From positions 9,610,001-9,674,000 of the forward strand of contig OZ024743.1 in assembly GCA_964016885.1 (NCBI GenBank): 64,000 nucleotides of DNA. The letters are read 5' to 3'. The stretch comes from Eledone cirrhosa. Its lineage: Eukaryota. The first letter of the stretch is position 1; the number at the start of each line of letters is the position of its first letter. Under the pieces are notes generated by a model, which saw only the letters and a list, made by a program, of their open reading frames with translations, had not been told where the DNA came from and searched no databases. The position numbers were made by a program, and so were the translations under genes. Positions 17,662 through 60,698 of the stretch are shown in pieces.

Positions 17662-17704
<43 letters not shown>

Positions 17705-21478: not shown

Positions 21479-21514
<36 letters not shown>

Positions 21515-33699: not shown

Positions 33700-33794
<95 letters not shown>

Positions 33795-33798
<4 letters not shown>

Positions 33799-34311
33799 CT
33801 GCACTTTCTAGCAGCAAGCCTACCCGCCGTAAGCAACCAATCACACGCTTTCTCTCTGGCTGGTACACAACTACATAGCGATCTTAGCCATTTTTGAATC
33901 TAAATTTGGCGCGGTTGGTTCGAGAAATTAAATGTCTGATTCTGAATTTATCTCCTGATGAAACCTAACTCAGGACAAATCCATATTATTTGGATGTCCT
34001 AAATAAGGAAGAAACCATGGTAGAGATATAATTACGGTATGTGCGCATTTCTTCTAGGTTTAATTTTACTACTAATTATGTACGGTTGATAGTATATTTG
34101 ATCGGATTCAGCATGGTGCCGAAATGTTTGATAAATAGTGGAACGGAGCTGCCGCGAAGAGGCTACGATCAATTGTTTGTCAGAGATTTCCCCGTAAGAA
34201 AATTTATTCTTAAAGCTTGCTAGATTTGATTATGTATATGGTTAATTATGCTGATTAGAAGAAGAAATAGTTTATATTTTAATATCTGATTGATTCTATA
34301 GACATGATTTA

Positions 34312-34318
<7 letters not shown>
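33795..34318 (+). mobile_element. Non-coding hammerhead element of the ~600-bp family, near-monomer in (TA)n
   Basis: Collinear with the reverse complement of 57500-58015; no real ORF. Confidence 0.78.
33949..34028 (+). ncRNA. Type I hammerhead ribozyme
   Basis: tatctc-CTGATGA-[...aggaca-atcca/tggat-gtcct...]-GAAAC-catg-GTA-gagata; 6-bp stem I, palindromic stem III (accatggt). Confidence 0.8.
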
Positions 34319-34360
<42 letters not shown>

Positions 34361-34361
<1 letters not shown>

Positions 34362-34820
34362 CAAATAAAATAACAGGAAGCTGGACTAATGTAAATCCTT
34401 GAAAGGTTTATTATACTATGATCATTTCAATGACCGAGTTCCGTATGAACTCGGTGGTATCATCAGGTATTCGAAATATAACAAAGGAATATATGAAATC
34501 CATGGGTCCGAAAATCAGAGACAGAGAGGACTGACCGAGGTGAAAGCAACTAGTTGGTCAGTCGTCCTCTCTGTCTCTGATTTTCGGACACATGGATTTT
34601 ATATATTCCTTTGTTATATTTCGAATACTTGATGATACCACCGGGTTCAAACGGAACCCGGTCATTGAAATGATCATAGTATAATAAACTTTTCAAGCAT
34701 TTACACCAGTCCAGCTTCCTGTTATTTTATTTGTAATAATTAACTCCGTATTAGCCCCACCAACTACACAAACGAAGACGGGTGAACTGCACTACGTTGA
34801 GTACTCTCCATAATATTACA
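34361..34820. repeat. pLTR-type fold-back with a hammerhead in each arm
   Basis: 34361-34536 mirrors 34557-34734; tail beyond; starts at (TA)n. Confidence 0.85.
34413..34470 (-). ncRNA. Type I hammerhead; mirror copy 34625-34682 (+) carries C3U
   Basis: atac-CTGATGA-tacc-accgagttc-atacg-gaactcggt-catt-GAAA-tgatc-ATA-gtat; palindromic stem III (atgatcat). Confidence 0.75.
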
Positions 34821-35161
34821 TCAAGATTGACCATACGGAATGACCAATTCTATCCAGTGGTGAACCAACAAACCTAAATAAATATATATCGAGCCCTCTT
34901 TGGATTCAACAGCTAGATCTGAACCGATCGAGCTGTTGAAACGGCCAGAGCTCAGCCGTCGGGGTCCTAAATTTTTTACACACCCGCGTGCGCCCCCCCC
35001 CCCCCCCCCCCCCAAACACACAGACATACATACACACGCGCGCGCACGCGCACACACATATATATTCGCTTAAGTTTAGTGATTCACCGCTGGATAGAAC
35101 TGGGCATTCCGTATAATCATTTTGCTCAGAATATATAATATATATGTGTGTGTGTGTGTGT

Positions 35162-35210
<49 letters not shown>

Positions 35211-35519
35211 TGTGTGCGCGCGCGTATGCATGGATATATGTATATTTGAGTGTGTATATAATTGTCCAGGTGTCTTATGCAGTCCCTCTCGAAGTGTGGC
35301 TATTTGTACTGGTCTTCCGCCATTGTGCGCGGTTCTTGGCCAACGTTTCTCAAGATCTTGTGTTGGTCTTAATATAATTTCATTTTAGTATTGTGCGATG
35401 TATACTAGCCGCATCATTGACGTTGTCCAGCTGGTAGAAGTAAAGAGCATTTAGGATAACGTTGTCATCCATCCGTGATCTTTGCCTTACCTAACGCCGC
35501 TGCGCTCGCCAGACGACGT

Positions 35520-36410
35520 ACTTGATGAAGAGGGTGTTGAAACGCACTGGATTTCAATATTGGTGGACGTGGTCTTCCAGAATTGTACAATTCTTTCCTA
35601 CGCATACATGTTAATGGTGAGCCGGTGAGTTATCATCGATGAGGTAGCATGTTCTCCGAAGATTAGTCAGAATTCTGCCTATCAAATCACCCATCACGAG
35701 CTCGGCTTTCATAAAGTCTGTGTGAGATGGGTGCCAAGAAAGCTTACCGCAGAGCACAAGCGCAAACGTGTTGGGGTCTGCTAACGTTTACTTGACTTCT
35801 GCAACAATGAAGCCGAAGAGACGTGGGTGCATCACTATGAGCCAGCGTGGAAGAAATTGAAGACTCAATCTTCGGCGACAAAGGGGTGTTAACCATATTT
35901 GGAAAAGGAGTATATATTGGAAGACTACCTAGAAAGGGGGTATACGAACAACAGTGCAAGGTACAGTGGCCAACACTCTGAAGCCACTAATTTGCACCAA
36001 ACACCGACCCCTATTGTGGAAGAAAGTTTTATTGTTGTATGACAATGCACGCCCACATACGGCCGCTCAGACCGTCGAAACCATTAACCAATAGGGATTT
36101 GGGGTGTTGGAACACCCTGTCTACAGCCCGGATATCGCACCGTCAAACCTTCATTTCTTTGGACCACTCAAAGATACTCTACGAGGTCGTCGATTTTCTT
36201 CTGATTTAGAAATACAGGAAGAGGTGCATAAAAGGTTGTGCGACAAAACTTCTTCTTGGAGGGAATACGCAAGCTTGTGGACCGCTGAACCAAGTGCATC
36301 GAAAAGGTAGGAGACTATGTAGAAAAATAACGTTCTTGTTTAACCCCTGCCTTTGTTTAAATACATTGAAAAAAATACAAGAGGAGAGATAAGTTTTGAC
36401 TTTCTCGCGT
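35520..36410 (+). mobile_element. Tc1/mariner transposase relic
   Basis: RWVPRKLT (~35725), LLYDNARPH (~36031), HPVYSPDIAPSNLHFFGPLK (36104 onward); fragmented. Confidence 0.85.
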
Positions 36411-36704
36411 ACATACGTGTGTGTGTTTGTGTGTCCTTTCTCATTTTCATTCTTTGCAATGTAGCTGACCTGTTGTACTGAGAAATTTCATATTCATGTA
36501 TATGTTGATATATGCACGCCTATAATAAATGTACAAATATGTATCCATGAAATACAAGATATATAACTAGCAAACATACCGAAAAGAAAATAGTCAGAAT
36601 ATCTTTCTACGGCATAAATTAAGTCGATGTGTTCTTGCATACGAAATGTAAATGGTTCAATAACTTACAGGGATAGTACATTTTATATTGATTCTTTCTT
36701 TAAA

Positions 36705-36794
<90 letters not shown>

Positions 36795-36809
36795 GATATA
36801 TATATATAT

Positions 36810-37675
36810 AAGGGAGAGGAAGAAAGTGGGGTGAGAGTAGATAGGGAGAAAAGGAGAGGAAGAAAGATGGGTGAGAGTAGAAAGTGACGAAATAGGTAGG
36901 TTGAAGGGAATAACTTATCCAGTTAGTGACGCCCTAGGATAAAGTGGTATCTTGTCTTTAAAGCGTAGAAATATCGTAGACTCCAGTAGACAACTGATGA
37001 GGACCCCCCCCCCTGTTCTTGCTTTCTTCGTATTCCCACTGCATTTTAACTTACCTTAAATAGCAACTACACAGCCATTTCTATTCTCAATATATTTCAT
37101 CATGTTTTTCACTGTGACCATTCTTCTCTCCCCTTCTACCTACCTATTTCGCCACTTTCTACTCTCACCCATCTTTCTTCCCCTCCTCTTCTCCCTATCT
37201 ACTCTTACCCCACTTTCTTCCTCTCCCTTTCTCCCTCTCACTTTCACCCCCTCGACTGACCGTTTAGCAGTTCTCTTCTCACTTACAACTGCTGCGGTCG
37301 GACGTGTGTCTTTTCTCTTGATTACTCGGTCTCGAACTTAAGTTTTATTATCGAGTGATCTTTGATTTCCTAACTATAGTTGCTGGCACATTGCTCGGTT
37401 TGTGTTTTTTATTTTTCGCTGTTTTGTTACTGTTTCTCTTTTCTTCCCCTTTGCTTTCCTTCCCTCTTTCCTTCGTTTTCGCAATAACATCCAGTTATTT
37501 ACGCCCTGGGTTGAAGTGGTATCTTGTCTTTAAAGCGTAGAAATATCCTAGACTCCCAGTAGACAACTGATGAGGAAGCCCCCCTGTTCTTGCTTTCTTC
37601 GTATTTCCACTGCATTTTAACTTACCTTAAATAGCAACTACACAGCCATATCTATTCTCCATATATTTCATCATA
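36810..37675. repeat. pLTR-like unit: short inverted arm plus a direct repeat with ~570-bp spacing, in (TA)n
   Basis: 36810-36910 mirrors ~37130-37240. 36917-37103 repeats at 37488-37672. Contains CTGATGAG but no complete hammerhead. Confidence 0.65.
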
Positions 37676-37722
37676 TATAGTAAAAATAAATTTGAAGACT
37701 AAAATCCATATATATATAAGTG

Positions 37723-37754
<32 letters not shown>

Positions 37755-37944
37755 AGTGTATATATAATCTATATTTATGTATATGTGTATGTGTGTATGT
37801 GTACATGTCAATGTGTCAGTGTATGCGTGTATTTTTATGTTTATATATATATATATATATATATTTAAATATATTTATATATACATATATATACATATAT
37901 ACATATATATACATTTACACTTATATGTACATATATATATATGT

Positions 37945-38037
<93 letters not shown>

Positions 38038-38047
38038 TATGTACATT

Positions 38048-38099
<52 letters not shown>

Positions 38100-38184
38100 A
38101 ATATATATATATATATATATATATATTTCGTTTCTGAATTTGTTAAGCAAGATTCTTTATTTGAAAACGTGTGTTGAAACCGAT

Positions 38185-38856
38185 ATTGTTATGCTTTGGG
38201 AGGGTCATGTTGCCAATAAGAAACACACGCACCAGTTGCTTTCACTCCAATTTATTATAAATGAACACTGGCGAGAGCTTCAAGATAGAAAGGAATCATT
38301 TGTACTCCACCAACATGCTAAAATAGAACATAAGGGTAAATTAGAGAACATAGAAATAAAAATAGAATCTACACACAGAAAAGACGCAATGTTTAGACAA
38401 ATCACAGAGGCAATACACATAAATGAACTCCAACCAAAATTAAATAGAAAACATGAATGGAATAGCAACATCACAACTTACAATTACGGACAAAATGAAA
38501 ACACACACACACATAGAACAAACAACCAACCAGTAACATGTAAATAAACAAATAAATAAACAAATATAAACACACACAGACACCCGGATGTAACACATGC
38601 GCAAACTAAGCACGCAACTCACACAAAAACAAGATGGCGTAGGACAGAACAAAGGAGAGGCACAAAAACAAAGAAAAGAATCCCTAGTCACTGAAGAGGT
38701 CACAGAATGTGTGACGAAAGAACTTTGAGAATATATGAACAACCAACCGGAAATTTATAAATTCTTAAATTTATAAATTTAATTTATAATAACTTGGAGT
38801 GAATCAACTGGTGCGTGTGTTTCTTATTGCCAACATGAGCCTCCCAAAGCATAACA

Positions 38857-38860
<4 letters not shown>
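38185..38860 (+). mobile_element. PLE 3' fragment (GIY-YIG C-terminus, 3' UTR, hammerhead-like motif) with ~55-bp inverted ends
   Basis: EH...LHQHAKIEH...RQITEAIHI....PKLNRKHEWN. 38185-38238 mirrors 38805-38860. tca-CTGAAGA-g-gtcaca-gaatg-tgtgac-GAAA-gaa-CTT-tga at 38688-38728. Confidence 0.82.
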
Positions 38861-38943
<83 letters not shown>

Positions 38944-39493
38944 GGAGGTGAGTTTTATTGTAGTACAATAAAGCAATGCAGATATCGGATAAGAAGCACT
39001 CTACAGTTTGTAGGACTGGAGTATACATAATATATAAGATCAAAAGATGGTTAAATGAGTTCCATATATTTTATTATGCGCATTTCAAAAACAAATATCA
39101 TCATGCAATAACATTTGTGTTTTCATCAGATAAAATGGGAGGACATGATATGAAGGTTAAAAACACTTGTGGATAGTGCAGTTTTAAATCAACATATGAA
39201 AAGTAGTTTTGGATTGATGTGTGACATTGGGGAAAAAAAATTTTCTTAGGGGGGGGGGGGATGAAAAAGAGGATGAGATGAGAGTAAAAAGTGGAGGGGG
39301 AGGAGTATAATGAGGAAGCATGAGATAGGAGGAGAGATGGGTGATAGAGAGAGAGAGATAGCTTTTATAACTGACAAAAATATATTGTTTTACATAGAGA
39401 GGTTGAAAAAACCGTTGGAAGATAATGTATAAATTATAAGAATTTGAAAATTAACGAAGAGAAAAATAATGTAAAGTTAAGGTTTGTATATTG

Positions 39494-39662
39494 AAGGGTT
39501 TAATAATATGTGCGATGAAAAGAAATTGTTAATATGTATTAAGAATAATATTTAAGGGTTTAATAATATGTGCGATGGAAAGAAAATGTTAATATGTATT
39601 AAGAATAATATTTAAGGGTTTAATAATATGTGCGATGGAAAGAAAATGTTGATATGTATTAT
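39494..39662. repeat. ~59-bp tandem repeat, three copies
   Basis: aagggtttaataatatgtgcgatg(g/a)aaagaaa... repeated. Confidence 0.8.
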
Positions 39663-39714
39663 TAAAAAAAGCAAAAGTAATGTAAGGATATATTGTGAGA
39701 TGAGCATGAATAAG

Positions 39715-39799
<85 letters not shown>

Positions 39800-39814
39800 T
39801 ATATATATATATGT

Positions 39815-39864
<50 letters not shown>

Positions 39865-42555: not shown

Positions 42556-42735
42556 AGGCAGTATCGGTAGAGGGTCGGACGCCATGCTTTGCAGAATAGT
42601 TACGGCCCTTTACGCTCTGAGTTCAAAACCTGCTGAAGTTAACTTTGCATTTCATCCTTACGAGGTCGAGAAAATAAAGTGCCAGTAATGACTAGGATAA
42701 TTCCTGGCCTTGTGCCAAAAGAAGAAACAGTTGCT
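42556..42735 (+). mobile_element. tRNA-derived SINE (short variant), diverged
   Basis: ggcagtatcggtagagggtcggacgccatgctttgc...gagttcaaa...ggccttgtgccaaaa. Confidence 0.85.
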
Positions 42736-43084
42736 AATATAAAATAAACATTCGAATGTAAACCACAATTAAGATTTAATTAAATATACAAACATACAAT
42801 AAACGAGTATAAAATGTTCAAACTAGATCTGAGAACATCAAAAGCTTTTAAGGAAACAAGACTTACCCGTCCATTTTGTTTCGTGGTTGCTGACAAAGTA
42901 AGAGAAACAGTACTTTGGCATTAATTTTCCGATGCCTTCGGTCAAGTAGCCGTCAATCAAATACCAATAAAGGTTTACAGAATGTTATTACACCTATACA
43001 AAGCTAAATTCTAAGTAGGTCAAATATACTAAATTTTACTGAGATCACTCATCCACGCATCTCTCATCACTGACCTCGATACTT

Positions 43085-44645
43085 GTATCCTCGATACTTG
43101 TATGAGGAGATATGCAACGTAAGATTTGACGACTTTGGATGGCAACATGCCAACTTACCTGTTAGAAACGGTGGCCATGGTCTCTGGTTTCTGGTTTCGT
43201 TGACTTTGTCGGCGTTTCTTTCATCTGTAACCTCATGCCGTATCCTCATCAACAGGGTTTTCCACAACACAACAGAACCCATTGTGATTAAGGAACGCGA
43301 AGCCACCTGCGAGACTTTGAAGCGGCTCAGACTCCACCCAGTAGAAGTCCCTCTTCTTGTTCCCCATTTAGTTGCCATCCAGTGTGTGCGTGTGTGTGTG
43401 TGTGTGTCCGTCTGTATGTTTGTGTATGTGTGTGTTTGTGTGTGTGTGTGTATGTGTGTATCTGTGTGTGTATGTGTGTGTGTATGTGCGTGCGCGCGCG
43501 CGTGTGTGTATATATGTATGCATGTCATAGGAATGAGTAAATACAGATTATGATAGTTATGTATATACTATAATGCAATTAAGAATTCAAAATTGTACAG
43601 AATATATTAACATTTATTTCTTGAACTTTTCATAATATATTGACTATAATTGTTATTCTGGCGTAAAATACGTTATTTGTAACTTTAAAGATTCTTTTCA
43701 GGACTTGCTCTATCATTAAGCGTCATCGTAGCTTTTGTGTGGAACATCTAAAGTTCTGCAATAATTCTTTAAGATAGAAACATGTCATGCCAAAACATCA
43801 TTATTATGGAATTTGGGTGAAATAAATTGCAATACAAAACGTTCTGTTTGGCGCACTCAATTTGTTTGACGTTTATAAACAGTATTCCGAATTATGCTCC
43901 ATATATTTTATTCAAACTATATAAATTCGGTCACCAAGACGAAAGGCCATAAGAGGAGTAGCAGTATGAAAGTAAAACAAAATTACGACCATGCAACAAC
44001 CATAACATCACAGTTACACAAGGCTCAGACGGGATACTTGCTCACAACTAGAAGAGAAAACCATACGCTGCCGGTGCTCTATTTGTAAGTAAACCTGTCA
44101 TAATTTGCAATTTTGGTGCTTACGAAATTTCGGCACATAAAGAAGATATGGTCACACTATTGCTTGAAGGAGAGCGTATATCTCTAGAGAATTTGAGGTT
44201 CTGTAAAAATGTTTTTCAAGATAAGATATTATGAAATATTAGCTATAAATCATTTATGACGGAAAATGAAGGACACCAATTCAATTTGAAGGAGGTAGAT
44301 CCGTCATCTGGGACACCACCTGCCGCGACATGTTATCCGCCTCTAACTTAGTCGCTTCGGCCACAAACTCCGGCATCGTGGCCCGCCTTGCAGAAGAACG
44401 TAAAATAAACAAATGCTGGGGTTTGTCCGGCCACTTCCTCGTCGCCGAGACTTCAGGCGTACTTGGACCTCTTACTGCCGAGCTCCTCCACAAGATCGGA
44501 GCGTCGGCGGTTCGTCTGAGGGGGGATTCTCGCACGGTTGGGTGGCTGTTGCAGCGGGTGTCACTGGCCATCGTTCGCGGGACTGCTTTTGCCGTCTTGC
44601 CCGCGGGGTGCAAATCTTCTGCACTCTTGCCCTACGCCTAAAGCC
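43085..44645 (+). mobile_element. CRE-like (restriction-like endonuclease) non-LTR relics in two pieces (~43085-43330 and ~44290-44645)
   Basis: WQHANLPVRNGGHGL...SAFLSS, and WDTTCRD...AEERKINK...ETSGVLG...LQRVSLAIVRG. Confidence 0.7.
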
Positions 44646-45422: not shown

Positions 45423-45443
45423 TTATCTATCTATCTATCTATC

Positions 45444-48400
45444 CGGAACATCTAGATCGTACCTAGATAGGGTTCTAGTTAGAAAGAAGGATAGGGACAT
45501 GTTAAGCTGTCCATAAATGTTCATGGTTGCCTATTCAGATCACAAATTAGTGACCTGTTTAGTCAACCTTGACAAAACCCATAGACAGGGACCCGGCTAC
45601 TGGAAGCTGAACTTGTCGTTACCGACATGCAAAGCCTACAGTAGAGGGATTAGCACTTTAGTTAAGCAGCACTTGACGGGGGCCATTGTCAACAACAGAT
45701 GGTGGTACTCTGTCAAGAGGGCAAATAGATTAGACTCGATAGGTTTTAGTAAAGAATTAGCGTTAGATAGAAATAAGACCGAAAAGGAACTGGTAGATAA
45801 AGTAGAAGAGGCACCTAGGAGTGGCAACGTAGCCAAGGTGCTAGCGACGAGAACGTTCTTCGGCGCAAAGCACGAAGGCTGCGTTGTCAGAAGCAAAATA
45901 CGTGCTCTGGGAAACGAGGGAGCCAAAGCTATTAGCTGGGCCCGAGTGACGGAGGCGAAAAGTGGCAACAAGTCCACGATTCGGTCTTCGAAGAACCAAG
46001 ACGGACGCGTGATACGTAAGCCGAAGCAGATGTGCACGGCCTTTCAGCGGCACTTTGCTCAACCGTTCGGGCAGGGCGGCGCGCCGGGAGGGGCTATGGA
46101 TTTCGGTTCATACCTCGACGGCCTGCCGCGGCTCTCGGACAACGAGGCGAAGTTCTGCGAAAGGCCGATTTCACCCGCTGAGATAGGGGATGCGCTGAGC
46201 CAATGCGGCAAACGCAAATCTCCAGGTCTCGACGGTCTACCCTACGAATATTACGTAACAATGCCGAACTTGTTCTCTGCTCTCCTGGAAGCGGTCTACT
46301 GCAACTGGCAGCAGAACGGGAGAATTCCCAGTTCTGTGACCAAGGGCATGGTCACGCTAGTCAGGAACGACTAGAATAAGGGGGATGATATAGGCAACCT
46401 CCGGCCCATAACTCTGCTAAACAGAGTTACAGATTTTGGCCAAGGCGTTAGCAAAGAGGCTGGCGCTTGTCGTCGAAAACCTGCTGGGAGAAGCGCAGAC
46501 ATGCGCAATCCCGACCAGGTCCATACACGATAACCTCCACCTCATGCGATACATCGTAGAGAGGGTAGGGTATAAACCTGGCTTCGGTGGGGCCCTGATC
46601 AACTTGGATCAGTCTAAGGCTTTCGATAGGGTTGACCATCGTTACCTGGATGCGGTGCTCGAGGCGGCAGGCTTCGGACCCGTGTTCAGGGGCTGGAATG
46701 CCGCAATGCACAACAGCAACATATGCTCAAGGGTCAAAGTGAACGGCTACCCCTCAGAGCCGTTCCATATTACGCGATCCATCCGACAGGGATTCCCTCT
46801 CTCCTCCCTTCTGTACGTACTGTACGTACTGACTCTCGAGCCACTACTGCGGAAGTTGGAGCTATTGCAGGGCATCCTTCTGGAACTGGGACTGCGACGT
46901 GTCAGTAATGCTGTCAGTAATGCTGTCGTGGACCTCGCAAATCGAGGAAGTCGGCACCCTACTGAAGTAATACGAAAGGTTCACAGGAGCGAAGCTGAAC
47001 CGGGACAAGTCCATCGGTTTGTAACTCGGATCGTGGAGAGGCAGACCGATGCCTTCCGATAGCGTCGTCGGACGCTGGACGGAAGGACCGGTGACTGCTC
47101 GGGGTCTGGTTTGGTCCGGACCTCCAGGTGGAGAACTGGAACGAGGTGACGGCCAAGGTGTTTGCACTCACCCAGAAGTGGGCCGAGTGCAAACTATCCT
47201 TGAACGGTCGAGCGGAGGTGGCGAACACTTTTATCGTCTTTTTAGGTCCATCGTCTACTACCGCTTGACCGTCGTGCCATGTCCAGCAAAAACGCTCACC
47301 AAAACGGAGGGCGTGCTCTTCCAATTCCTTTGGAAGAAGCGGGCTTCTTTGGTGAGAAGATCCATCTGCTGCCAACACCCTTCGAACGGAGGGCTGGGGA
47401 TGCCGTGGCTGATGATGCGCAAACCCGCGCTTAGGCTGCGGTACCTCCACGTATTCCTTACTGGACAACCGGTGTGGGCCCCGTTCGTGAGGCGAGCCTT
47501 GCCACGACTCGTCTCGCTGACCGAGCTGCAGTCCTGGGTCAAGCAAAGACCGAGGAAAATGGGCGACTGGCACATCGAATGTGCTCAGGCGCTCACAGTC
47601 CTCTGGCAGGCGGACCCGGCGATCAGTGGAGACTCCACTCCCTCATTCTATAGAGGGTTGGTCCGCAGCAAGTGCGACGACGCGTCAGAGAAACTCTAGG
47701 CGTAGAGGAAGACGAACTGACCAGTCTGTTCGGTAGGACCTTCCTCCCAGGACCAATGGACAACTTCCAAAAGTCCCTGGCCTGGAAGTGCTACCGAGGA
47801 GCTCTACCAGTTCGAGACAAGCTCTACAGACACGGGCGCCCGAGCAGGGACCCCTCAAAAAAGATCTGTCCGAGATGCGTGCGAGACGAAGAAACCGTCG
47901 CGCACGCATTCGTACACTGCCCGGGTGTTACCGACCTGTGGGGCTATGTAAAACGACTATTGTCACGGGTGGGACCAATCCGGTAGACCACCGAGTCCAT
48001 CGTCATGATCAAACCGCCACCCTCCTTCAAAAACGAAGGAGAGGCGGTTTTCCTTTGTGTGATAGCTATGGTGAAAGAGGTTGTATGGTGGACGAGGTTG
48101 AAATGGCTGAGGTCAGACACCTTTCTCTCCGGCCAACAACTGATTCTTCATTTCAAATACCACTTTAGAAGAAGAGTGAGGATGGAGAGAGAGGTGCTCT
48201 ACCCCAGCAAGTTTTGTGAAAGGTGGGTGAAGGTGGCGAGAATGGCCCGAGTGAATGGGTCTTCTCTTTATATCAGCCTGTAGGTTGAGCAAAAAGAGGG
48301 GAAAGGGGTACTCACTCTTCGTACTCCTGGAGATTAGGGTTGCACATTTTTTCGGGGGTATGTGTTACCCATATGTAATGTCTCCCCCTTTTGGGGAAAA

Positions 48401-50252: not shown

Positions 50253-50682
50253 TGAAACAGATCAATAATGATCTATAATCATTTGATCCAGAAACATTAT
50301 ATGGAGTAGCGAAACAATTGTAAACGGACATTATTAGTATTATTATTATTGTTCTTTACATTCCTTACATTAAACTAAAACTATGTTGACAATCTTTTAA
50401 TAATGTCTTCCTTGTGAAATGTGTGGTCTTGTTTTGCTTAACTAATGAATATATATACATTATATATATATATAACAAGAAAAGTGTGGTAAGGAACCAG
50501 GTGGACCATAACCCACCAGAGTACTCGATACTTAGGATAGTAGAGGGGGTAATAGGAAAAGAGTCAGGGCCCGACGCCTGAGCTCCGGCCGTTTAGTTCG
50601 GTTTAGTACAGATCTAGCTGTCGAAACGGCCGGAGCTCAGCCGTTAGGGTGCTGACTCTTTTTCTATATTATATTATATATA

Positions 50683-52306
50683 TAAAAACAAATAACGAAA
50701 CGAAATTAAATTTCGTTTCGTTTGTAACTCACTTTTGTATGACTGACGCTCAAACAATTAAGTCAAAGATGTACATCCATATATGTATACTGAAATACTA
50801 GTATGTATATGAATACACACACGTATACATATGTAGATGTACCAAGTTTTTTTCACTGATCACTTTACTGTGAGTGGCCAGCTATTCTGTATGTAAACAC
50901 ACAGACAAACCGGTTTTTAGAGTCATACTGGTTTTTGAGGAAACACCTTTCCTCTATTCTCCAGAAAGCCAGACAAGGAACATTGAACTAGTTTCGTTGT
51001 TGTTACAACTCATCAGCAATATTTACCTATCTTCCGGCCTCTCTAGAGAATCGTAAAAGCACATATCGCTATATGCTTTTTCTATGAAAATTAGTAGTGG
51101 GCAGACCAACTTGCATAGAGTGTGAGTAAGTACCGGTTCAACGGAGACGATAAAAACAAATAACGAAACGAAATTAAATTTCGTTTCGTTTGTAACTCAC
51201 TTTTGTATGACTGACGCTCAAACAATTAAGTCAAAGATGTACATCCATATATGTATACTGAAATACTAGTATGTATATGAATACACACACGTATACATAT
51301 GTAGATGTACCAAGTTTTTTTCACTGATCACTTTACTGTGAGTGGCCAGCTATTCTGTATGTAAACACACAGACAAACCGGTTTTTAGAGTCATACTGGT
51401 TTTTGAGGAAACACCTTTCCTCTATTCTCCAGAAAGCCAGACAAGGAACATTGAACTAGTTTCGTTGTTGTTACAACTCATCAGCAATATTTACCTATCT
51501 TCCGGCCTCTCTAGAGAATCGTAAAAGCACATATCGCTATATGCTTTTTCTATGAAAATTAGTAGTGGGCAGACCAACTTGCATAGAGTGTGAGTAAGTA
51601 CCGGTTCAACGGAGACGATAAAAACAAATAACGAAACGAAATTAAATTTCGTTTCCTCAAAAACCAGTATGACTCTAAAAACCGGTTTGTCTGTGTGTTT
51701 ACATACAGAATAGCTGGCCACTCACAGTAAAGTGATCAGTGAAAAAAACTTGGTACATCTACATATGTATACGTGTGTGTATTCATATACATACTAGTAT
51801 TTCAGTATACATATATGGATGTACATCTTTGACTTAATTGTTTGAGCGTCAGTCATACAAAAGTGAGTTACAAACGAAACGAAATTTAATTTCGTTTCGT
51901 TATTTGTTTTTATCGTCTCCGTTGAACCGGTACTTACTCACACTCTATGCAAGTTGGTCTGCCCACTACTAATTTTCATAGAAAAAGCATATAGCGATAT
52001 GTGCTTTTACGATTCTCTAGAGAGGCCGGAAGATAGGTAAATATTGCTGATGAGTTGTAACAACAACGAAACTAGTTCAATGTTCCTTGTCTGGCTTTCT
52101 GGAGAATAGAGGAAAGGTGTTTCCTCAAAAACCAGTATGACTCTAAAAACCGGTTTGTCTGTGTGTTTACATACAGAATAGCTGGCCACTCACAGTAAAG
52201 TGATCAGTGAAAAAAACTTGGTACATCTACATATGTATACGTGTGTGTATTCATATACATACTAGTATTTCAGTATACATATATGGATGTACATCTTTGA
52301 CTTAAT

Positions 52307-52307
<1 letters not shown>
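50683..52307. mobile_element. Retrozyme-like array: ~2.1 tandem 468-bp units, then ~1.4 inverted units, in (TA)n
   Basis: Units start at about 50683, 51151 and 51619; inversion at ~51655; copies look identical; one hammerhead per unit; no real ORF. Confidence 0.85.
50980..51022 (-). ncRNA. Minimal type I hammerhead; identical copies at 51448-51490 (-) and 52041-52083 (+)
   Basis: atattg-CTGATGA-gttg-taacaa-caac-GAAAC-ta-GTT-caatgt; stem II gttg/caac, palindromic stem III (aactagtt). Confidence 0.85.
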
Positions 52308-52379
<72 letters not shown>

Positions 52380-52524
52380 AAAAAGTATGACCCCATACGT
52401 TTACCTATTACCCACTCTACTATCCTAAGTATTGAGTACTCTGGTGCGTTATGACCCATCTACTTCCTTACCACAACTCCTTCGTTATATATATATAAAT
52501 ATATAAATATATAAATATATATAC

Positions 52525-52602
<78 letters not shown>

Positions 52603-52646
52603 AAGTTAAATAAAAGTCAAATGATTAAAATTTAGCTTCGTTTATT

Positions 52647-52701
52647 ACTGCTATATATATTTCAGTGACAGCCATCTTTGGCTGTGACCTCTTCAGGCAG
52701 T
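52647..52701 (-). ncRNA. Type I hammerhead in the pLTR; copies at 56772-56826 (-) and 57172-57226 (+)
   Basis: actgc-CTGAAGA-ggtc-acagcc-aaagat-ggctgt-cact-GAAA-tatat-ATA-gcagt. Confidence 0.82.
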
Positions 52702-53892
52702 TTGAATTAGTATGGTATAGACAAGTACATATGTTGTTTAGGTGTATGATATTGTCAATACTCTGATATGCCCAGTTCCTTGTTGGGTTGTTAATTCACT
52801 GGGGAACTGGAGTCATATGAATTCAAACAAACGAATTTTAGTGTCACAGGTCCCCTTCTCCTCTCATTGGTCAGTTATTAGTGTTGTCATTGTTGGAGTT
52901 AGCTTAAAAATTGATAAAATGGTAGAAGGGACAAGGTGTTGAAGGAACAAAATATCAAAAAATGTGTCAAACTTCCCATTGTTCAGTTCTGAGAGCATTC
53001 CTCAGTCAGAAGTCTATAGAATTCTTTCTGGGGTGAGGCTCCCTGTAGTGTTTATGCCTGCTATTGTTCAGTACATTTGACCTCCACCATTATTTTGGTA
53101 CTGTTGTTGTTGTAGTGGTCAGCTTATATCTTGCTGCTGCTAACAATTTAGAAGTATTCAGTTTGTGTTTTCTCTTCATCCCACCCGCCACCATCGTAGT
53201 GGTGGTGGCGGGGGGGGGGGGTTATTTCATGTATATGAAGAAATATAAGGCAATAAATGAAGAAAACAGAAGATAAATAAATAATATAATAAAATAAAAT
53301 AATTAATATAATTTGTGTAATTTGAAAATAAATAAATAAATAGAGAATAAAGAATAAAGAGTAAATGAGAGATTGGTGAAAAAGTAATGATAATGTATAT
53401 GGAGAAGTGAGAAATAATGTAGGATAAAGTGTGTGTGTGTGTGTGCTATAACCAATCTCAAGGTCAGAATATGTTGGATAGATTGGTATGATACAAGATG
53501 TTAAGATGAGATATTCAATGTGTTTGTGTTATAATCTATCTCAACTTAAAATAAATATAAATATAAGGTTATACAGTGAAGAGGGCAGAAAACAAATAAC
53601 AAATTAATATAGAGAAATCAAGATTTAAGATTGGAACTTTAAAGTCAGAAATCTGGAAAATTAAAAGTGTTGTGTTATAGATGTTGGCCAGATTATTATG
53701 GCTGTGTCCGATTCTGTCTCTAGGCTATCATGGTGTCTGCTCCGCCTGGGTTGTTCCCTATGGCTTGAGGGGAGTTCACAACCTAGGGTGTTGTAATTGT
53801 CCATATAGCTTGAGGGAGGTCTGGCCGTGAGGTGTTTTCATGTTCTGTAGAAGTCCCTATAGCTTGAGGGGAGTTCACATCTTCTTGTGTTG

Positions 53893-56569
53893 CTACTGTC
53901 CATATATTTTGAGAAAGGTCCCGGCTCTAAGGTGTCTGCATGTCCCGAAGAAGTCGGTTCTGAGGTTTATCAGGCCGCTTCCACCTCTTAGTATCTCGAG
54001 GGTCTCGTTCAGGCATAGTTTGCATATGCAAGATCCCCCTTTATCGGGTGGTACTTTCCTGATTATGTACCAGGCCAGAGAGTATGGGGTCCTGTCCAGC
54101 TTAAGCTTCCAGATCAGGTCGGAGAGAGCTGTGCTTTTCCTTTTGGCCTCCTTCTTGAATGAATGGCGATGGTTGTACCAGCGGTCCTTAAAGCTCGTTG
54201 ATGTGGCTCCTATGTAGAGGTGTTCGGAGTTGGGGGTTTTAACCCTACAACCGTACACTATGTTCTTCTTGAGACATTCCTTACCAAGGGGGCATGATTC
54301 GGGGTTTCTACAGTTGCAGAGGGTGGGCGGCCTCTGCGTGCTTAGATTAGGGTTCTCATTATGTGTTACATGTTGGTCTTCCCCCATGCTCGGTGGGGGG
54401 TCCTTGGATCTGTTTGTGTTTCTTGGGTGGGCTCTGGGTCCCCCCTTCCCTCCTTTCACATGGTTCTGCTGAGTGTTTGTATTGCCATCTTCTGGTTGTG
54501 TGTGGTTTTTAAGCCTACTTCTGTTGATGCTAGCTATGTGTTGGGCCAAATTTCTCGTGGTGGAATACGAAAGCTTCACAGTGTGTCTGTTGAAGATCCT
54601 GTGGTATCTGTGGTCCCTCGGGAAGCATTTGTCAAGTGCTCCAAAGAACAATCGGGCCAAGCTTTTCTTTAGGGCCGCTGAGTAGGGTGGGTTGTACCAC
54701 GTGATTTGTCGGTGTCTCCTCCTATATGTGTGGGTTGGGGGCTTCGTGATTTATTGGAGATTTGTTGGTTTGCTGGTGGTTTCCGCACTGTTGCTTCCCT
54801 TTTGGGCTCTATACTTTCTGTTATCTTCACGGCCCGGATTTGTGGGGTGGTTGTTGTCTGCCCCGGAAGATCCATCGTGGGGTGGTCGCCCGTTTCCTCC
54901 CCCCCCCCCACGTGTCCTGCGGTTGGGGTTGTCCGTCCTGGGGTAGTTAGCATCACGCCTGAGACTGCTACTCATATTGTGCTCCATCTTGTGGTCAAGC
55001 GCACTAGTCCCCACCGCCCGTGTGGTGGTGTCTGGTACATGGTGCCTATTTTGCTCTGCCTGTATTGTTAGGGTTCGCCCTCTCCCCTCTGGTAACGCGG
55101 TTGTGGGTGTCTGTTGGGCTATCCACCTCCCGGCTTTTCGGACTATATGTTATATTTTGTCCATGTGCCGCCTTCTTTAGAGCTGCGTTGTAATATTCCG
55201 CGTGGTTGTTGAATATTTCCTTACTTGCGGACAGGCTGGAGATCCTGTCCGAGACACTCTTCACCACTGCCTTGGTTATGGATCTAGGGTGGTTTGATTT
55301 GGCGTTAACATATACTAGTTTCTCGTTGGGCTTGTGGTAGGGGTAGTATTGCTCGGTGTTCAGGTTTAGGGTGGTGTCTAGGAAGTTAACTACCTTCCTA
55401 TTTGGGTCTATTTCTATGCTGAGCCCCTGGTTCTTAAAGAAATGGCGAATACGCCTCCTCATACCCTCCAACATATTGGTGCTGTGGTCATGTACTGTGA
55501 ATAGAGCATCGTCACGATATAATCCGCCGCCCAGGCAGGGGATTTCATCTTTTATCTGCTTCAGCAGGTAGAGCCCGACCAGGTCCGTTACCTGCGCTGA
55601 GTCGCTGGAGCCCATCGTGATGTCAAAGTTATTTGGCCAATCACTCCTGGTCCACAGGTCTCCATCGAAGCGGATTAAGGTCTTTCTTGCGGCGTGGATG
55701 ATGCTCACCTCCTCTCGGGTTAGGTCCGTATTGGACATCGCTAAAAATAGGGCCTTATTAAGTACTATGGGTGAGATTGAGGAGTAGTAGCTTGCGATGT
55801 CCAGTTGTATAAAGCTGGTCCTACTTTTCTCCTGCAGTATTTTGAACCATTCTATTACTTCTCTCGTGCATGACCATTGCTGTAATTTGGTTTTTTTCCG
55901 AAGCTTGGGCAAAATCCTATCCAGTATTCTTTTACTGACGATCCCTAGGTCAGATCTGGAGGGGGCTATTAGTCTGACAGGGAGGTCGGACTCAAAGTTT
56001 GACTTGTGGTCTTTAAGGGTAATCCGCGGCTTCCTTGGTTGGTATGGGGCCGTCCTGTCCTCTATGCCGATTCTGGATATAATCCTGTAAGCTGTGGCAT
56101 TGATCTCATCCAGGGTAAATCCAGGTGTTTTTTTGTAGCACTTCCTCAGTTCCCTGAGGATTAGCTTATTGTACAGTTCAGTGTTCATGTTGTAGAGGTT
56201 GTTTGTTTTGTCAGCATGGACAAGTATTCCAGTTGTCCCTTTAAGTACTGTAATCCGGTTTCTCAGGTGTCTGAGGTACTCCTGACTTCTGGTTGGGTTT
56301 CCGGAGAATTTGAGGTTGGATATGATGTTAATCATCTCGTTTTCAAACTCCTCCATTAGTCTGTTATGGGGGGGATTCCTCCTTGATCGAAAAAGGTACT
56401 CCATGTTTTCTGTGTTTGTAGTTTTCTGCGTTCCTCTTTCGAAGTGGAACGCCTTCCATCTCATCCTACGGATGAGGGAGTCCGTACTCTTGATGAGATC
56501 ACTGGTGTATTCTCGTTTATCAGGTAGGGGGATGTCCTTCAGTGACGCTAAGGTTGCCAGTTTATCCAT
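53893..56569 (-). pseudogene. PLE RT plus GIY-YIG endonuclease, with one frameshift (~55050) and one TAA (54751) in the linker
   Basis: SLKDIP...RMRWKA, ADKTNN, QLDIASYY, MGSSDSAQVTDL, YRDDAL, FLDTTL, WYNPPY, CNC...CP, IVY...YIGATSTSFKDRWYNH, CKLC. Confidence 0.92.
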
Positions 56570-57372
56570 AGTGACTTAGGTCCGCTACTGTTTGAAGCGC
56601 TCAACCCGTGTGGGAGCTAGATAGATTTTGAGTTTATGTTGGTTGTATACCAACACCTCAGTATGCAGGCTGGAGCACTCGACGAAGTGCGCAGGTTGGT
56701 TTGGTTACTCCGGAGTAGTGTAAAATAAAGTTAAATAAAAGTCAAATGATTAAAATTTAGCTTCGTTTATTACTGCTATATATATTTCAGTGACAGCCAT
56801 CTTTGGCTGTGACCTCTTCAGGCAGTTTGAATTAGTATGGTATAGACAAGTACATATGTTGTTTAGGTGTATGATATTGTCAATACTCTGATATGCCCAG
56901 TTCCTTGTTGGGTTGTTAATTCACTGGGGAACTGGAGTCATATGAATTCAAACAAACGAATTTTAGTGTCACAGGTCCCCTTCTCCTCTCATTGGTCAGT
57001 TATTAGTGTTGTCATGTGGGGACCTGTGACACTAAAATTCGTTTGTTTGAATTCATATGACTCCAGTTCCCCAGTGAATTAACAACCCAACAAGGAACTG
57101 GGCATATCAGAGTATTGACAATATCATACACCTAAACAACATATGTACTTGTCTATACCATACTAATTCAAACTGCCTGAAGAGGTCACATCCAAAGATG
57201 GCTGTCACTGAAATATATATAGCAGTAATAAACGAAGCTAAATTTTAATCATTTGACTTTTATTTAACTTTATTTTACACTACTCCGGAGTAACCAAACC
57301 AACCTGCGCACTTCGTCGAGTGCTCCAGCCTGCATACTGAGGTGTTGGTATACAACCAACATAAACTAAAAA

Positions 57373-57411
<39 letters not shown>

Positions 57412-57417
57412 GTTTAC

Positions 57418-58291
57418 ATATACATAAACATAAAGTCATAGATATATACGTTGCAACCGGTCACGTTGTAGCTCTATGAAGAATTAATAAATTAAATAAT
57501 CAGAGCAATATATCATAAATCATGTCCTTAGAATTATTAGATAAAATATATACCATGTCCTCTCCCAATTAACCATATAAAAAATCAATTAGACCAAGCT
57601 ATAAGAATAAAGGCTCTTATGAAGAAATTTCCGACAAATAACCGAAAGCGGCCTCTTCGCGGTGGCCCCAATAGAGTATTTAACCAACATTTCGACAGCG
57701 TGTAGACATTGACTAAATATACCATCAACCATACACAATTAGGTGCAAATTCAAACTTAGATGAAATGTGTACATACCGTAATTATATCTCTTCCATGGT
57801 TTCATCCGTATTTTTAGACATCCAACTAATAGGATATGTCTGGAGTATCGGATTCATCAGGAGACAAACTCAAAATTAGACATTTAGTTTTCCAAAGTGA
57901 TCGCGCCAAAAATAGATTTTAAAATGGCTAAGAATCGTGACGTGGCAGTGGTCAAGTTAGAAAGAATGTGATTAGTTGCTTACGGCTGGTAGGCTTGTTG
58001 CTAGAAAGCGCAGCCAAATATACATAAACATAAAGTCATAGATATATATATGTTGCAACCGGTCACGTTGTAGCTCTATGAAGAATTAATAAATTAAATA
58101 ATCAGAGCAATATATCATAAATCATGTCCTTAGAATTATTATTTGTCGGTTATTTGTCGGAAATTTCTTCATAAGAGCCTTTATTCTTATAGCTTGGTCT
58201 AATTGATTTTTTTATATGGTTAATTATGCTAATTGGGAGAGGAAATGGTATATATTTTATCTAATAATTCTAAGGACATGATTTATGATAT
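57418..58291 (-). mobile_element. Retrozyme-like ~600-bp family, subfamily 2: 1.2 tandem units plus an inverted arm
   Basis: 57418-57540 repeats at 58018-58141 (period 600). 58146-58291 mirrors ~57508-57645. Hammerhead at 57787-57865 (-) has its cleavage triplet changed to GAA. Confidence 0.8.
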
Positions 58292-58300
58292 ATATATATA

Positions 58301-59211
58301 TTTACACATACACCAATTAAACAAAGTCACAGGTATATATGTATTTTGGCAACTTTTCACGATGTGGCTCAATGGAGAATCAATAAATTAATCAGAGCAA
58401 AATACTATAGAGTAAAGCATGTCCAGAGAATTATTTGATAATATATATACATCATCTCTACTCCCAATCAGCATAATTAACCACACAAAAAATCAATTAG
58501 ACCAAGCTATAAGAATAAAAGGCATCTATGAAGAAACAGCTATAGAATATTTACCCAGCATTTCAACAGCACGTGGAAATTAATTAAATATACGGTTAAC
58601 CATACATAATTAGGTAAAAATCAATGTTAGAAATGCTTATATACATACCAGCATTAAATCACTAAATCCCGACCCGAGTTTAGAGCTCTTCAGGGGATAA
58701 ACTCGTTAGGACATATTATTTTCCGAAGTGGCCCCCGCCAAACACGAATTTAAAATGGTTGAGAACTGTGACGTGGCAATGGTCAAGTCAGGAAGGGTGT
58801 GATTGGTTGCTTACGGCGAGTGGGTTGGTTGCTAGAAAGCGCAGCCCAATATCGCCAAGTTTTTATCTCAAACTTATGGGAGATTATTAAATATAAATAT
58901 TTACACATACACCAATTATACCAAGTCACAGGTATATATGTGTTTTGGCAACTTTTCACGATGTGGCTCAATGGAGAGTTAATAAATTAATCAGAGCGAA
59001 ATACTATAGAGTAAAGCATGTCCAGAGAATTATTTGATAATATATATACATCATCTCTACTCCCAATCAGCATAATTAACCACACAAATATCAATTAGAC
59101 CAGGCTATAAGAATAAAAGGCATCTATGAAGAAACAGTAAATAAACACGCTATTGTGGCGTCTTCGCGTACAACCGCTATAGAATATTTACCCAGCTTTA
59201 CTCTATAGTAT
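58301..59211 (-). mobile_element. Retrozyme-like ~600-bp family, subfamily 3: 1.5 tandem units plus a short inverted end; another piece at ~59930-60196 (+)
   Basis: 58301 onward repeats at 58900 onward (period ~599). Damaged hammerhead atccc-CTGAAGA-gctc-TAAAC-tcgg-GTC-gggat at 58666-58698 (-). Confidence 0.78.
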
Positions 59212-59711
59212 ATATGTATATATACATATATATATGTAGATCACTGATGAAGGACTAATTTTATTCATATGTAACCCTTGTGCAACCACGCAGCACGCCA
59301 TTTTTCATATATGTATATGTTCTTCTGCATCCTCCTGCATTGAACCACCTAGGTACTATGACATAACTTATGTATTTGCTAGCATTAGTGTACATCTGTA
59401 CGCATATGTTGGTAGATATACTAATTCTCTATATTTATCTCCAAATTATTTATTTGTTGAGCAAACCTGCCAAATCCACTACTAATTCATTGGTGTGGTA
59501 GTAGGCTTTTGTCATCTTACCAACCCACTCCTTCCGACTAGCCTCAGTGTCACGTGATTGATTCTTTAGAATCTGCCATTTGACCAGAGACAGCGAACTT
59601 TTTCAGTGCATGGAATCCAGTCCCCGCTAGCTGTTCCATCCACCGAATTATTATTATTTTTATATGAGTCCCTAGTGTCCGCGCATTGCCTGGAGACTTA
59701 GCTGAGAATAG

Positions 59712-59793
59712 ACTCCCTGATGACGTAATAAATTCTCGATGGTTATATTACGTAACTATCTTTATCCCATTACAGAAACTAATTAGTTGGAGT
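59712..59793 (+). ncRNA. Type I hammerhead ribozyme with extended stem II
   Basis: actcc-CTGATGA-c-gtaat[...]attac-a-GAAAC-taatta-GTT-ggagt; palindromic stem III (actaattagt). Confidence 0.8.
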
Positions 59794-59854
59794 GAAAATT
59801 TTAGTAAGTAAGTTAATTTTTAATTTTTTTTAAAATTTTTTCTTATTTTACGTC

Positions 59855-59920
<66 letters not shown>

Positions 59921-60698
59921 GTATATAATCCTGGTATGTATATAAGCATTTCTAACTTTAATTTTACCTAATTATGTATGGTTGACCGTATATTTAATTA
60001 ATTTCCACGTGGTGTTGAAATGTGGGGTAAATATTCTATAGCGGTTGCGTATTTATTTACTGCTTCTTCATAGATGCCTTTTATTCTTATAGCCTGGTTT
60101 AATTGATTTTTTGTGTGGTTAATTATGCTGATTGGGAGTAGAGATGATTATATATACTATCAAATAATTCTCTGGACATGCTTTACTCTATAGTATATAT
60201 ATATATATATATCTGTGTGCATTCACCGTGAGTATTTATATATATATATGTACTTCAGTGTGTTTCAGGACAAGAAGGATCATCCATGCGTCTACGTTGC
60301 TAGGCAATCTAAACCCTAACTATATATATGTGAGTGGGTGTGTGTGATTGTGAGTATGTGATATTCAATGATAGAATATTCATGTATGGTGACAACATAT
60401 GAGAAAGAAACACAACAGGTTATCTTTAATATATGGCTACTTATAATAACAATAATGCCAACTAACGCTCATTTTTACAGATGTTGATACTGGAAAGCTA
60501 TCGATCATCGATAGATTTAAGAAAATCTTTGCTTCAATGAAATCACGAGCGTTTCGCAAGGAAATATGATATCACGTTTAAAATGTTATTATATTAGCAC
60601 TGACAATAACACGTGTACATCACTTACACTCACATGCCACACACATTCTCACACCCGACACATGCACAAACACACATGCGCACACTTACATACACACA

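What the first reader, a model, noticed from the sequence alone, without database searches (positions are those of the whole stretch)
33795..60196. A second, diversified ~600-bp retrozyme-like family present as three subfamilies
Seen: 33795-34318, 57418-58291, 58301-59211 and ~59930-60196 are homologous, sharing ggctgcgctttctagca..agc(c)ta..cgtaagcaaccaatcac and ggttaattatgctgatt blocks. Two copies show tandem periods of 600 and ~599 bp with no intervening ORF, different start points and short inverted ends. The hammerhead is at the same position in all three but has a different stem I in each (tatctc/gagata, gtctc/gagat, atccc/gggat) and a different stem II. Inference: a long-lived non-autonomous lineage whose length and ribozyme fold, not sequence, are conserved.
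Basis: partly seen in the sequence, partly recalled or inferred. Interest (0 to 1): 0.75.

Follow-up and report, generated by a model that had tools for sequence, protein, structure and literature searches.

The report
Hammerhead-bearing non-autonomous Penelope passenger family
A multi-copy, non-coding repeat with a hammerhead-ribozyme motif sits in TA microsatellites with the two-ended footprint of Penelope-like retrotransposons and is likely copied by their enzymes, a new member of a known kind whose complete unit is estimated at about 665-685 bases rather than the 600 first reported.

Summary
The four segments are one family: A (33797-34313 +), B (57413-58287), C (58301-59209) and D (59923-60192 +). 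Identities are A-B 77%, B-C 74%, A-C 65%, C-D 96%.

The 600 and 599 periods come from different private deletions: B lacks the ~53-nt spacer and 9 nt; C1 lacks 46 nt and 31-39 nt. The native unit is about 665-685 nt.

No window hammerhead is fully canonical: A has two mismatches at the base of helix II, B has a mutated cleavage triplet, C has a 46-nt deletion, and D has none. Relatives are intact at B's site (208 of 212 reads).

Divergent copies run head-to-tail through the spacer with no ORF. All six outer 3' ends fall at two fixed sites about 100 nt apart, in TA tracts, with inverted arms. Neighbouring Hydra-clade-like Penelope elements show the same footprint.

Verdict: a non-autonomous Penelope-type (retrozyme-like) family, likely mobilised in trans. 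Circles, cleavage and expression are untested. New member of a known kind; interest 0.38.

The parts
33797..34313 (+). Copy A (subfamily A): unit start to end site E1, one arm, between two (TA)n tracts
33949..34028 (+). Type I hammerhead of A: 6-bp helix I, intact core and GUA triplet, long helix II with two A.A mismatches at its base, short palindromic helix III
33797..33948 (+). Conserved 5' block upstream of the hammerhead, with CCAAT-like and E2F-like words (motif names recalled); candidate internal promoter, untested
   Evidence: for conservation; function inferred
34037..34215 (+). Candidate retained intron: donor-like word shared by A, B, C and D, pyrimidine-rich acceptor-like word; 179 nt in A and B; untested
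   Evidence: no RNA data
57413..58017 (-). Copy B1 (subfamily B): unit start to end site E2; 9-nt private deletion; left end in (TA)n next to a Hydra-like PLE
57786..57866 (-). Hammerhead of B: helices intact, U16.1 replaced at 57793 in this copy only
   Evidence: (208 of 212 X6 reads differ from the window)
58018..58141 (-). B2: 124-nt 3' fragment ending at E2, joined to B1's start without the spacer
58146..58287 (+). Inverted arm of B ending at E1 in (TA)n
58301..58846 (-). Copy C1 (subfamily C): unit start to E2; lacks 46 nt in the hammerhead and 31-39 nt near 58540
58666..58698 (-). Remnant hammerhead of C: helix I, first core box and cleavage triplet remain; 46 nt missing at 58675/58676
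58847..58899 (-). 53-nt spacer joining E2 of one unit to the start of the next: the native head-to-tail junction
   Evidence: crossed by divergent contigs X4 record 15 (58826-58990), X4 record 14 (58767-58920) and X5 record 23 (58865-58973)
58900..59195 (-). C2: 5'-truncated upstream unit, 97% identical to C1
59196..59209 (+). Minimal inverted arm of C ending at E1
59923..60192 (+). Copy D (subfamily C): 5'-truncated just downstream of the hammerhead, ends at E1, between TA tracts
52598..57380 (-). Context, not part of the family: Hydra-clade-like PLE (RWK, DKT, CxCx5C; ORF in two pieces) with an inverted arm, a 105-nt tail and a hammerhead; type of the candidate helper
17700..21479 (+). Context, not part of the family: second Hydra-clade-like PLE (5'-truncated 637-aa ORF, inverted arm, 77-nt tail)

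Best explanation
This is a multi-copy, ORF-less repeat with an estimated 665-685-base head-to-tail unit and a type I hammerhead motif, inserted at TA microsatellites with two fixed 3' ends about 100 bases apart, and it is likely a non-autonomous Penelope-like element copied in trans by a Penelope-type reverse transcriptase-endonuclease, probably of the Hydra clade. Proposed cycle: (1) a tandem master is transcribed through the junction from an internal promoter (inferred); (2) the helper enzyme nicks (TA)n and starts cDNA synthesis inside the RNA at site E1 or E2 (the ends are shown; the enzymology is inferred from the anole PLE); (3) cDNAs primed from the two sides of the break meet as an inverted pair, one arm with the ~100-nt tail, or a single arm is 5'-truncated and joined by AT microhomology (structure shown, process inferred); (4) the hammerhead, with its palindromic helix III, would cleave as a dimer to process the transcript (untested). 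All four window copies carry a lesion in, or lack, the hammerhead.
For: Six of six outer 3' ends fall at two homologous sites: E1 in A, B-arm, C-arm and D; E2 in B1 and C1. The offsets are 100 and 105 nt. Seven of 8 outer ends lie within 5 nt of a (TA)4+ run, against 5.7% of window positions; the eighth abuts an imperfect TA tract, and two ends share one tract. Neighbouring elements show the same anatomy, with tails of 71, 77 and 105 nt, and two of them have Hydra-clade motifs. The literature gives the inverted arm, tail and (TA)n target as PLE signatures (PMC8557442) and equates the tail with two internal RT start sites (PMC11167929). The family is multi-copy: 4613 X1 contig pieces and 5002 X6 reads were laid, most of them under 95% alike. 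Divergent contigs run from E2 through the spacer with no ORF. The longest stop-free stretch is 88 aa, and substitutions in the shared 63/65-codon frame show no third-position excess (20/18/12). The hammerhead is preserved in relatives.
Against: There is no detectable similarity to any pLTR or arm of the other PLE-like insertions in the window: 26 of 27 comparisons stayed within shuffle range, and one scored 33 against a shuffle maximum of 30; nhmmer found only the family itself. The helper is therefore unidentified, and no genome was held. Only 24 of 686 loose ends and 15 of 56 joints were shown, so an ORF-bearing relative cannot be excluded. The tail is ~100 nt against the 30-40 bp in print. 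Covariation rests on two sequences and is not significant (127 of 500 shuffles reach it). Rfam gave no hammerhead match on A, B or C at E<=1. The 46 missing letters of C were not printed, so an intact core in C relatives is inferred from length only.
Confidence: 0.8

Rival explanations
1. The segments are only pLTR fragments of an autonomous PLE family whose ORF-bearing copies lie elsewhere in the genome.
For: The anatomy (promoter-like block, long-helix-II hammerhead, candidate intron, two end sites) is that of a pLTR. Truncated PLE insertions often contain only the terminal repeat (preprint 10.64898/2026.07.22.740005). A and D are single arms, and B's junction is not native. Most loose ends were not shown.
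Against: C runs from E2 through a 53-nt spacer into the next unit start. Contigs 86-93% alike from two runs with different organism labels cross the same spacer, and depth over it is like that of the rest of the unit. B-type reads also enter a C-like spacer (joint 58021-58865 and loose end at 58861).
Confidence: 0.12
2. Classical retrozyme cycle: hammerhead-cut monomers are ligated to circles, and rolling-circle reverse transcription of a circle gives the tandems. This is compatible with a PLE helper and differs only in the template.
For: C spans about 1.5 units and crosses the cleavage site, as do A and B1. The hammerhead is kept in relatives. Such circles are shown for coral, mussel and axolotl repeats (PMC7229834).
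Against: C1 and C2 differ at 8 of 255 sites plus a 39-nt indel, and at one site C2 shares a derived letter with D; one circle would give identical units at insertion, although later decay can explain most of this. As a circle, B1 folds no better than shuffles (z +0.96) and C1 modestly (z -2.9), against z -8.6 for the 468-bp family (25 shuffles each). The hammerhead is of the long-helix-II PLE type. In vitro, PLE insertion did not need hammerhead cleavage (PMC11167929).
Confidence: 0.3
3. The tandems are local duplications of a dead repeat, and the family spreads as DNA (satellite-like expansion).
For: B's junction is private to this locus. The 2026 preprint proposes local amplification for vertebrate retrozymes.
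Against: Fixed 3' ends, inverted arms and TA targets in all copies; C's junction is shared by divergent copies.
Confidence: 0.04

Closest known systems
Animal non-LTR retrozymes (Cervera & de la Pena 2020, PMC7229834; Li, Clavereau & Pollet 2026 preprint 10.64898/2026.07.22.740005)
   Same: Non-coding, low GC (35%), head-to-tail unit with a type I hammerhead, co-occurring with PLEs. The unit length lies within the 51-972 bp range of the preprint.
   Different: Longer than the 170-400-nt invertebrate examples. Long helix II instead of the canonical 4 bp. No window locus has two complete hammerheads in tandem (the preprint's 'active' criterion). Weak self-pairing; circles not shown; no match found to a local pLTR.
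Non-autonomous Chlamys elements such as MRC1 (Craig et al. 2021, PMC8557442)
   Same: ORF-less PLE passengers that make pLTR-like partial tandems and head-to-tail insertions.
   Different: Green-algal and of another PLE clade; generally similar to their helper at the 3' end, whereas no helper similarity was found here (window only).
Hydra-clade PLEs (PMC8557442, section 11)
   Same: (TA)n target, hammerhead in the terminal repeat, inverted arm and tail; two such elements lie in the window.
   Different: They encode an RT and GIY-YIG protein; this family does not and shows no detectable sequence similarity to the two local ones.
PAc Poseidon element of the green anole (PMC11167929)
   Same: Two fixed ends that define a tail, and AT-rich targets.
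   Different: Tail of 30-40 bp there, ~100 nt here; PAc is autonomous and its RT start sites lie inside the ORF.

Membership tests
Animal non-LTR retrozyme | Non-coding head-to-tail unit | tested here: met
   Longest stop-free stretch 88 aa; native junction in C crossed by divergent contigs.
Animal non-LTR retrozyme | Type I hammerhead in the unit | tested here: met
   Motif in A and B with 41 of 44 cells paired (93.2%); the B cleavage site is intact in 208 of 212 reads.
Animal non-LTR retrozyme | [quoted passage not shown] | tested here: not met
   Not met in this window: B and C each hold one damaged hammerhead. The rest of the genome could not be examined.
Animal non-LTR retrozyme | Canonical hammerhead architecture (helix I 6 bp, helix II 4 bp with loop contact) | tested here: not met
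   The helix II region is about 51 nt with an internal loop, closer to the PLE-type larger helix II described in PMC4209133.
Animal non-LTR retrozyme | Highly self-paired monomer | tested here: inconclusive
   Circular fold z +0.96 (B1) and -2.9 (C1), on damaged copies with 25 shuffles.
Animal non-LTR retrozyme | Self-cleavage and accumulation as circular RNA | not testable with these tools
   Needs a bench assay or RNA reads.
Non-autonomous Penelope-like element | Inverted 5'-truncated arm with a tail on one end only | tested here: met
   B and C; the tail is ~100-105 nt, longer than the published 30-40 bp but like its neighbours.
Non-autonomous Penelope-like element | Partial head-to-tail tandem | tested here: met
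   C1/C2 with the spacer.
Non-autonomous Penelope-like element | (TA)n target, as for Hydra and Naiad clades | tested here: met
   7 of 8 ends within 5 nt of (TA)4+, background 5.7%.
Non-autonomous Penelope-like element | No RT/EN ORF in the unit | tested here: met
   (best tblastn hit of four window PLE proteins against the units: E 0.68); only part of the read tables was visible.
Non-autonomous Penelope-like element | Sequence similarity to an autonomous PLE's pLTR | tested here: inconclusive
   None among 9 window targets; the genome was not available.
Non-autonomous Penelope-like element | Mobilisation by PLE protein in trans | not testable with these tools
   Needs an in vitro target-primed reverse transcription assay.

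The most novel reading that the evidence does not exclude
A long-lived, SINE-like lineage of ORF-less Penelope passengers that has lost sequence similarity to its helper yet keeps its own promoter, a retained intron, two RT start sites ~100 nt apart and a hammerhead under purifying selection across subfamilies 23-35% apart and in two organism labels. That would mean hammerhead cleavage is needed in vivo for spread, against the in vitro result that PLE insertion does not need it.
Probability: 0.3. Interest if true: 0.62.

Novelty: new member of a known kind. Interest (0 to 1): 0.38.

Why it matters
That animal retrozymes ride on Penelope-like elements was proposed in 2020 and argued from phylogeny in a July 2026 preprint, which leaves the mechanism open. 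This family adds insertion-site evidence: a hammerhead-bearing non-coding unit leaves the two-start-site, inverted-arm, (TA)n footprint of its PLE neighbours. It also offers a compact substrate for testing trans-mobilisation and the in vivo role of PLE hammerheads. It is not a new kind of element.

Tried and rejected
1. '600 = 599 shows a conserved period': rejected, both copies carry different private deletions.
2. 'C has a minimal hammerhead variant': rejected, it is a 46-nt deletion.
3. A hidden peptide in the 63/65-codon stop-free frame shared by A and B: rejected, mismatches by codon position were 20/18/12.
4. Homology to the local PLE pLTRs or the 468-bp family: not found.
5. Read-end pile-ups in X6 as RNA ends: rejected. 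X6 is a DNA RAD-seq run, and 4 of the 6 listed places lie in an AATT word of the window sequence.
6. Expression: no RNA holder listed, which is no evidence either way.
7. Rfam at E<=1: hammerhead matches only on the 468-bp family.
8. Pattern scan of metagenome contigs: 0 matches.
9. Earlier findings by sequence and by place: none.
10. Pfam on 7 window proteins named only a GIY-YIG (26381-27187) and an L1-type RT, so the clade call rests on motifs.
11. One search used a structure string out of register; it is discarded and replaced.
12. D starting ~11 nt after the cleavage site as a sign of a cleaved template: one case among seven 5' ends, not taken as evidence.
13. Summed contig depth was not used as a copy number.
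Full report
OBSERVATION. The four segments are homologous. In hammerhead-sense orientation they are A (33797-34313, +), B1 (57413-58017, -) with a short upstream piece B2 (58018-58141, -) and an inverted arm (58146-58287, +), C1 (58301-58846, -) with a spacer, an upstream piece C2 (58900-59195, -) and a 14-nt inverted arm (59196-59209, +), and D (59923-60192, +). Identities are A-B1 77%, B1-C1 74%, A-C1 65%, C1-D 96% and C1-C2 97%. Alignment scores of 76-391 exceed shuffle maxima of 28-34 in all five pairs tested. Three subfamilies (A, B, C/D) are therefore real. The offsets of 600 and 599 bp exist, and no stop-free stretch exceeds 88 codons. A profile of the copies found no further member in the window.

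THE PERIOD IS NOT 600. No genome was held. Eight runs were listed, five holding part of the stretch and none on record as RNA. I laid four of the eight on 57410-59250 at 80% likeness: X1, X4 and X5 as contigs, X6 as raw RAD-seq reads; X5 carries a different organism label. The tool showed 40 of 361 variant rows, 15 of 56 joints and 24 of 686 loose ends, so the view is partial. The family is multi-copy: 4613 X1 pieces and 5002 X6 reads were laid, most under 95% alike. B's junction is private: at 58021, 239 X6 reads leave the window sequence for a spacer-like sequence, and one X1 contig joins 58021 to C's spacer at 58865. C has 53 nt between the unit end and the next unit start, where B has none. 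B1 also lacks 9 nt that its own inverted arm has. C1 lacks 46 nt at 58675/58676 (one X4 contig, two X6 reads; the matching segment is exactly 46 nt in A and in B) and 31-39 nt near 58540 (present in C2 and in X4 record 13). Adding these back gives about 665 nt for B, assuming a C-like spacer, and 676-684 nt for C. The distance from unit start to the first end motif becomes 504 (A), ~498 (B) and 500-508 (C).

THE JUNCTION IS NATIVE AND HAS NO ORF. X4 record 15 (58826-58990; 9 other letters and 2 gaps in 166) runs from E2 through the whole spacer into the unit start. X4 record 14 (58767-58920) and X5 records 22 and 23 cover the same path in parts. Depth over the spacer is like that of the rest of the unit. 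An ORF-bearing relative among the unseen loose ends cannot be excluded.

THE HAMMERHEAD. The first core box lies 153-158 nt from the unit start in all three subfamilies. On the A/B alignment, a type I fold pairs 93.2% of cells against 26-42% when slid. It has two compensatory pairs in helix II and one wobble in helix I. With two sequences this is not significant (127 of 500 shuffles). C adds one compensatory pair in helix I and changes the variable core position N7 and the H17 position. Helix III is short and palindromic, the form reported to act as a dimer (PMC4209133); two copies of A's motif are predicted to co-fold through it. Helix II is long, as in PLE hammerheads and unlike the canonical 4-bp helix. 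None of the window copies is fully canonical. A has two A.A mismatches at the base of helix II. B has lost U16.1 at 57793, where 208 of 212 X6 reads (45 starts), 43 X1 contigs, 1 X4 contig and 7 X5 contigs show the canonical letter. C has the deletion; its 46 missing letters were not printed, so an intact core in C relatives is inferred. D begins downstream of the motif. Rfam models matched none of these at E<=1.

THE ENDS GIVE THE MECHANISM. All six outer 3' ends fall at two homologous sites: E1 (A 34313, B arm 58287, C arm 59209, D 60192) and E2 (B1 57413, C1 58301), 100-105 nt apart, with a few bases of uncertainty from AT microhomology. Seven of eight outer ends are within 5 nt of a (TA)4+ run, against 5.7% of the window; the eighth abuts an imperfect tract, and two ends share one tract. 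Craig et al. describe partial tandems, an inverted 5'-truncated copy and a 30-40-bp tail at one end as the PLE footprint, with (TA)n targets for the Hydra and Naiad clades. Frangieh et al. showed that the tail lies between two internal RT start sites, and that hammerhead mutants still insert in vitro. The same footprint is seen in neighbours: the 468-bp family (tail 71 nt) and two PLEs at 17700-21479 (77 nt) and 52598-57380 (105 nt). Both PLEs have DKT and CxCx5C and one has RWK, the Hydra-clade motifs. The Atlas look-alikes of one include GIY-YIG-bearing clusters. The family shows no similarity to nine local pLTR or arm sequences: 26 of 27 comparisons were within shuffle range and one was marginal, 33 against 30. 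The helper is therefore inferred by type only.

MODEL. A non-autonomous Penelope-type element (0.8), likely moved by a Hydra-clade enzyme (about 0.6 given the former). Shown: homology, multi-copy state, ORF-less head-to-tail junction, fixed ends, TA targets, hammerhead fold. Inferred: internal promoter (CCAAT-like and E2F-like words; names recalled, untested), target-primed reverse transcription from E1 and E2, dimeric cleavage. Open: circle or linear multimer as template. C1 and C2 differ at 8 of 255 sites plus an indel, with one derived letter shared by C2 and D, and B1 and C1 fold weakly as circles (z +0.96 and -2.9, against -8.6 for the 468-bp family; 25 shuffles). Neither point supports circles, but both rest on decayed copies. 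B may be two events in one TA tract or a template jump.

KNOWN KIN AND NOVELTY. Animal non-LTR retrozymes are described, with PLEs named as the likely helper (PMC7229834). A July 2026 preprint reports units of 51-972 bp and derives them from pLTRs. Non-autonomous Chlamys elements are known, and short non-autonomous Penelope elements are mentioned in butterflies (PMC6685494). The family works like these. It meets the tested features of a non-autonomous PLE, but fails two retrozyme criteria in this window (two intact hammerheads in tandem; canonical helix II), so I call it retrozyme-like only. Six paper searches showed no description of this family or of the two-end footprint for a retrozyme; Repbase and Dfam could not be checked. 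What I saw of each paper: the preprint, parts 1-3 of 5 (abstract to discussion; its supplements are closed and may list similar families or end structures); PMC11167929, parts 1-2 of 4; PMC7229834, parts 2-3 of 6 plus passages; PMC4209133, parts 1-2 of 4; PMC8557442, passages and section 11; PMC6685494, passages; no supplements; all others as search listings only. One earlier scan note (e1-7810660) reports a similar TA-targeted unit in another genome; I did not test it. That the host may be a cephalopod is a recalled guess from the repeat landscape and was not tested.

VERDICT. Observation partly confirmed; interpretation partly supported; new member of a known kind; interest 0.38.

Noticed in passing
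window 50682-52310: Young 468-bp tandem family with a Rfam HH9-like hammerhead (34 bits, below the gathering score), near-identical copies, an inverted arm, a 71-nt tail and strong circular folding (z -8.6). A better retrozyme candidate than the family studied.
   Followed up: partly
window 52598-57380 (-): Hydra-clade-like PLE, ORF in two pieces (56575-55046 and 54750-53893), with a hammerhead at 56821-56785 and a 105-nt tail; copy B abuts it through a TA tract.
   Followed up: partly
window 17700-21479: Second Hydra-clade-like PLE, 5'-truncated, with a 618-bp inverted arm. Its terminal region recurs as short two-armed insertions, e.g. 33540-33702, 52378-52485 and 23905-24033.
   Followed up: partly
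window 34037-34215 (+); 57599-57777 (-): Donor-like word shared by A, B, C and D, a branch-point-like word and an acceptor-like word; spacing is 179 nt in A and B and ~181 in C with its deleted segment counted. Possible retained intron; no splice joint among the 15 of 56 joints shown.
   Followed up: partly
window 34357-34900: Another inverted-arm element next to copy A, with a long-helix-II hammerhead motif at 34466-34425 (-).
   Followed up: no
window 13749-14990 and 25400-26316: Further inverted-arm insertions in TA tracts; a compact hammerhead motif lies at 14973-14952 (-), with a related block at 26255-26316.
   Followed up: no
window 59923-59935: Copy D starts about 11 nt downstream of the position matching C's cleavage site; a single case.
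   Followed up: partly
window 33797 and 58015: A's 5' end and B's junction fall at the same unit position, just after an AT-rich word of the spacer; possibly a favoured 5'-joining site by microhomology to (TA)n.
   Followed up: no
window 996-4432 and 45449-48282: Two decayed L1/Tx1-like retroelements about 70% alike (RVT_1 hit at 2567-3571).
   Followed up: no
window 26381-27190: 3' part of a PLE of another type, with a GIY-YIG match (E 0.00035, below the cut-off).
   Followed up: no
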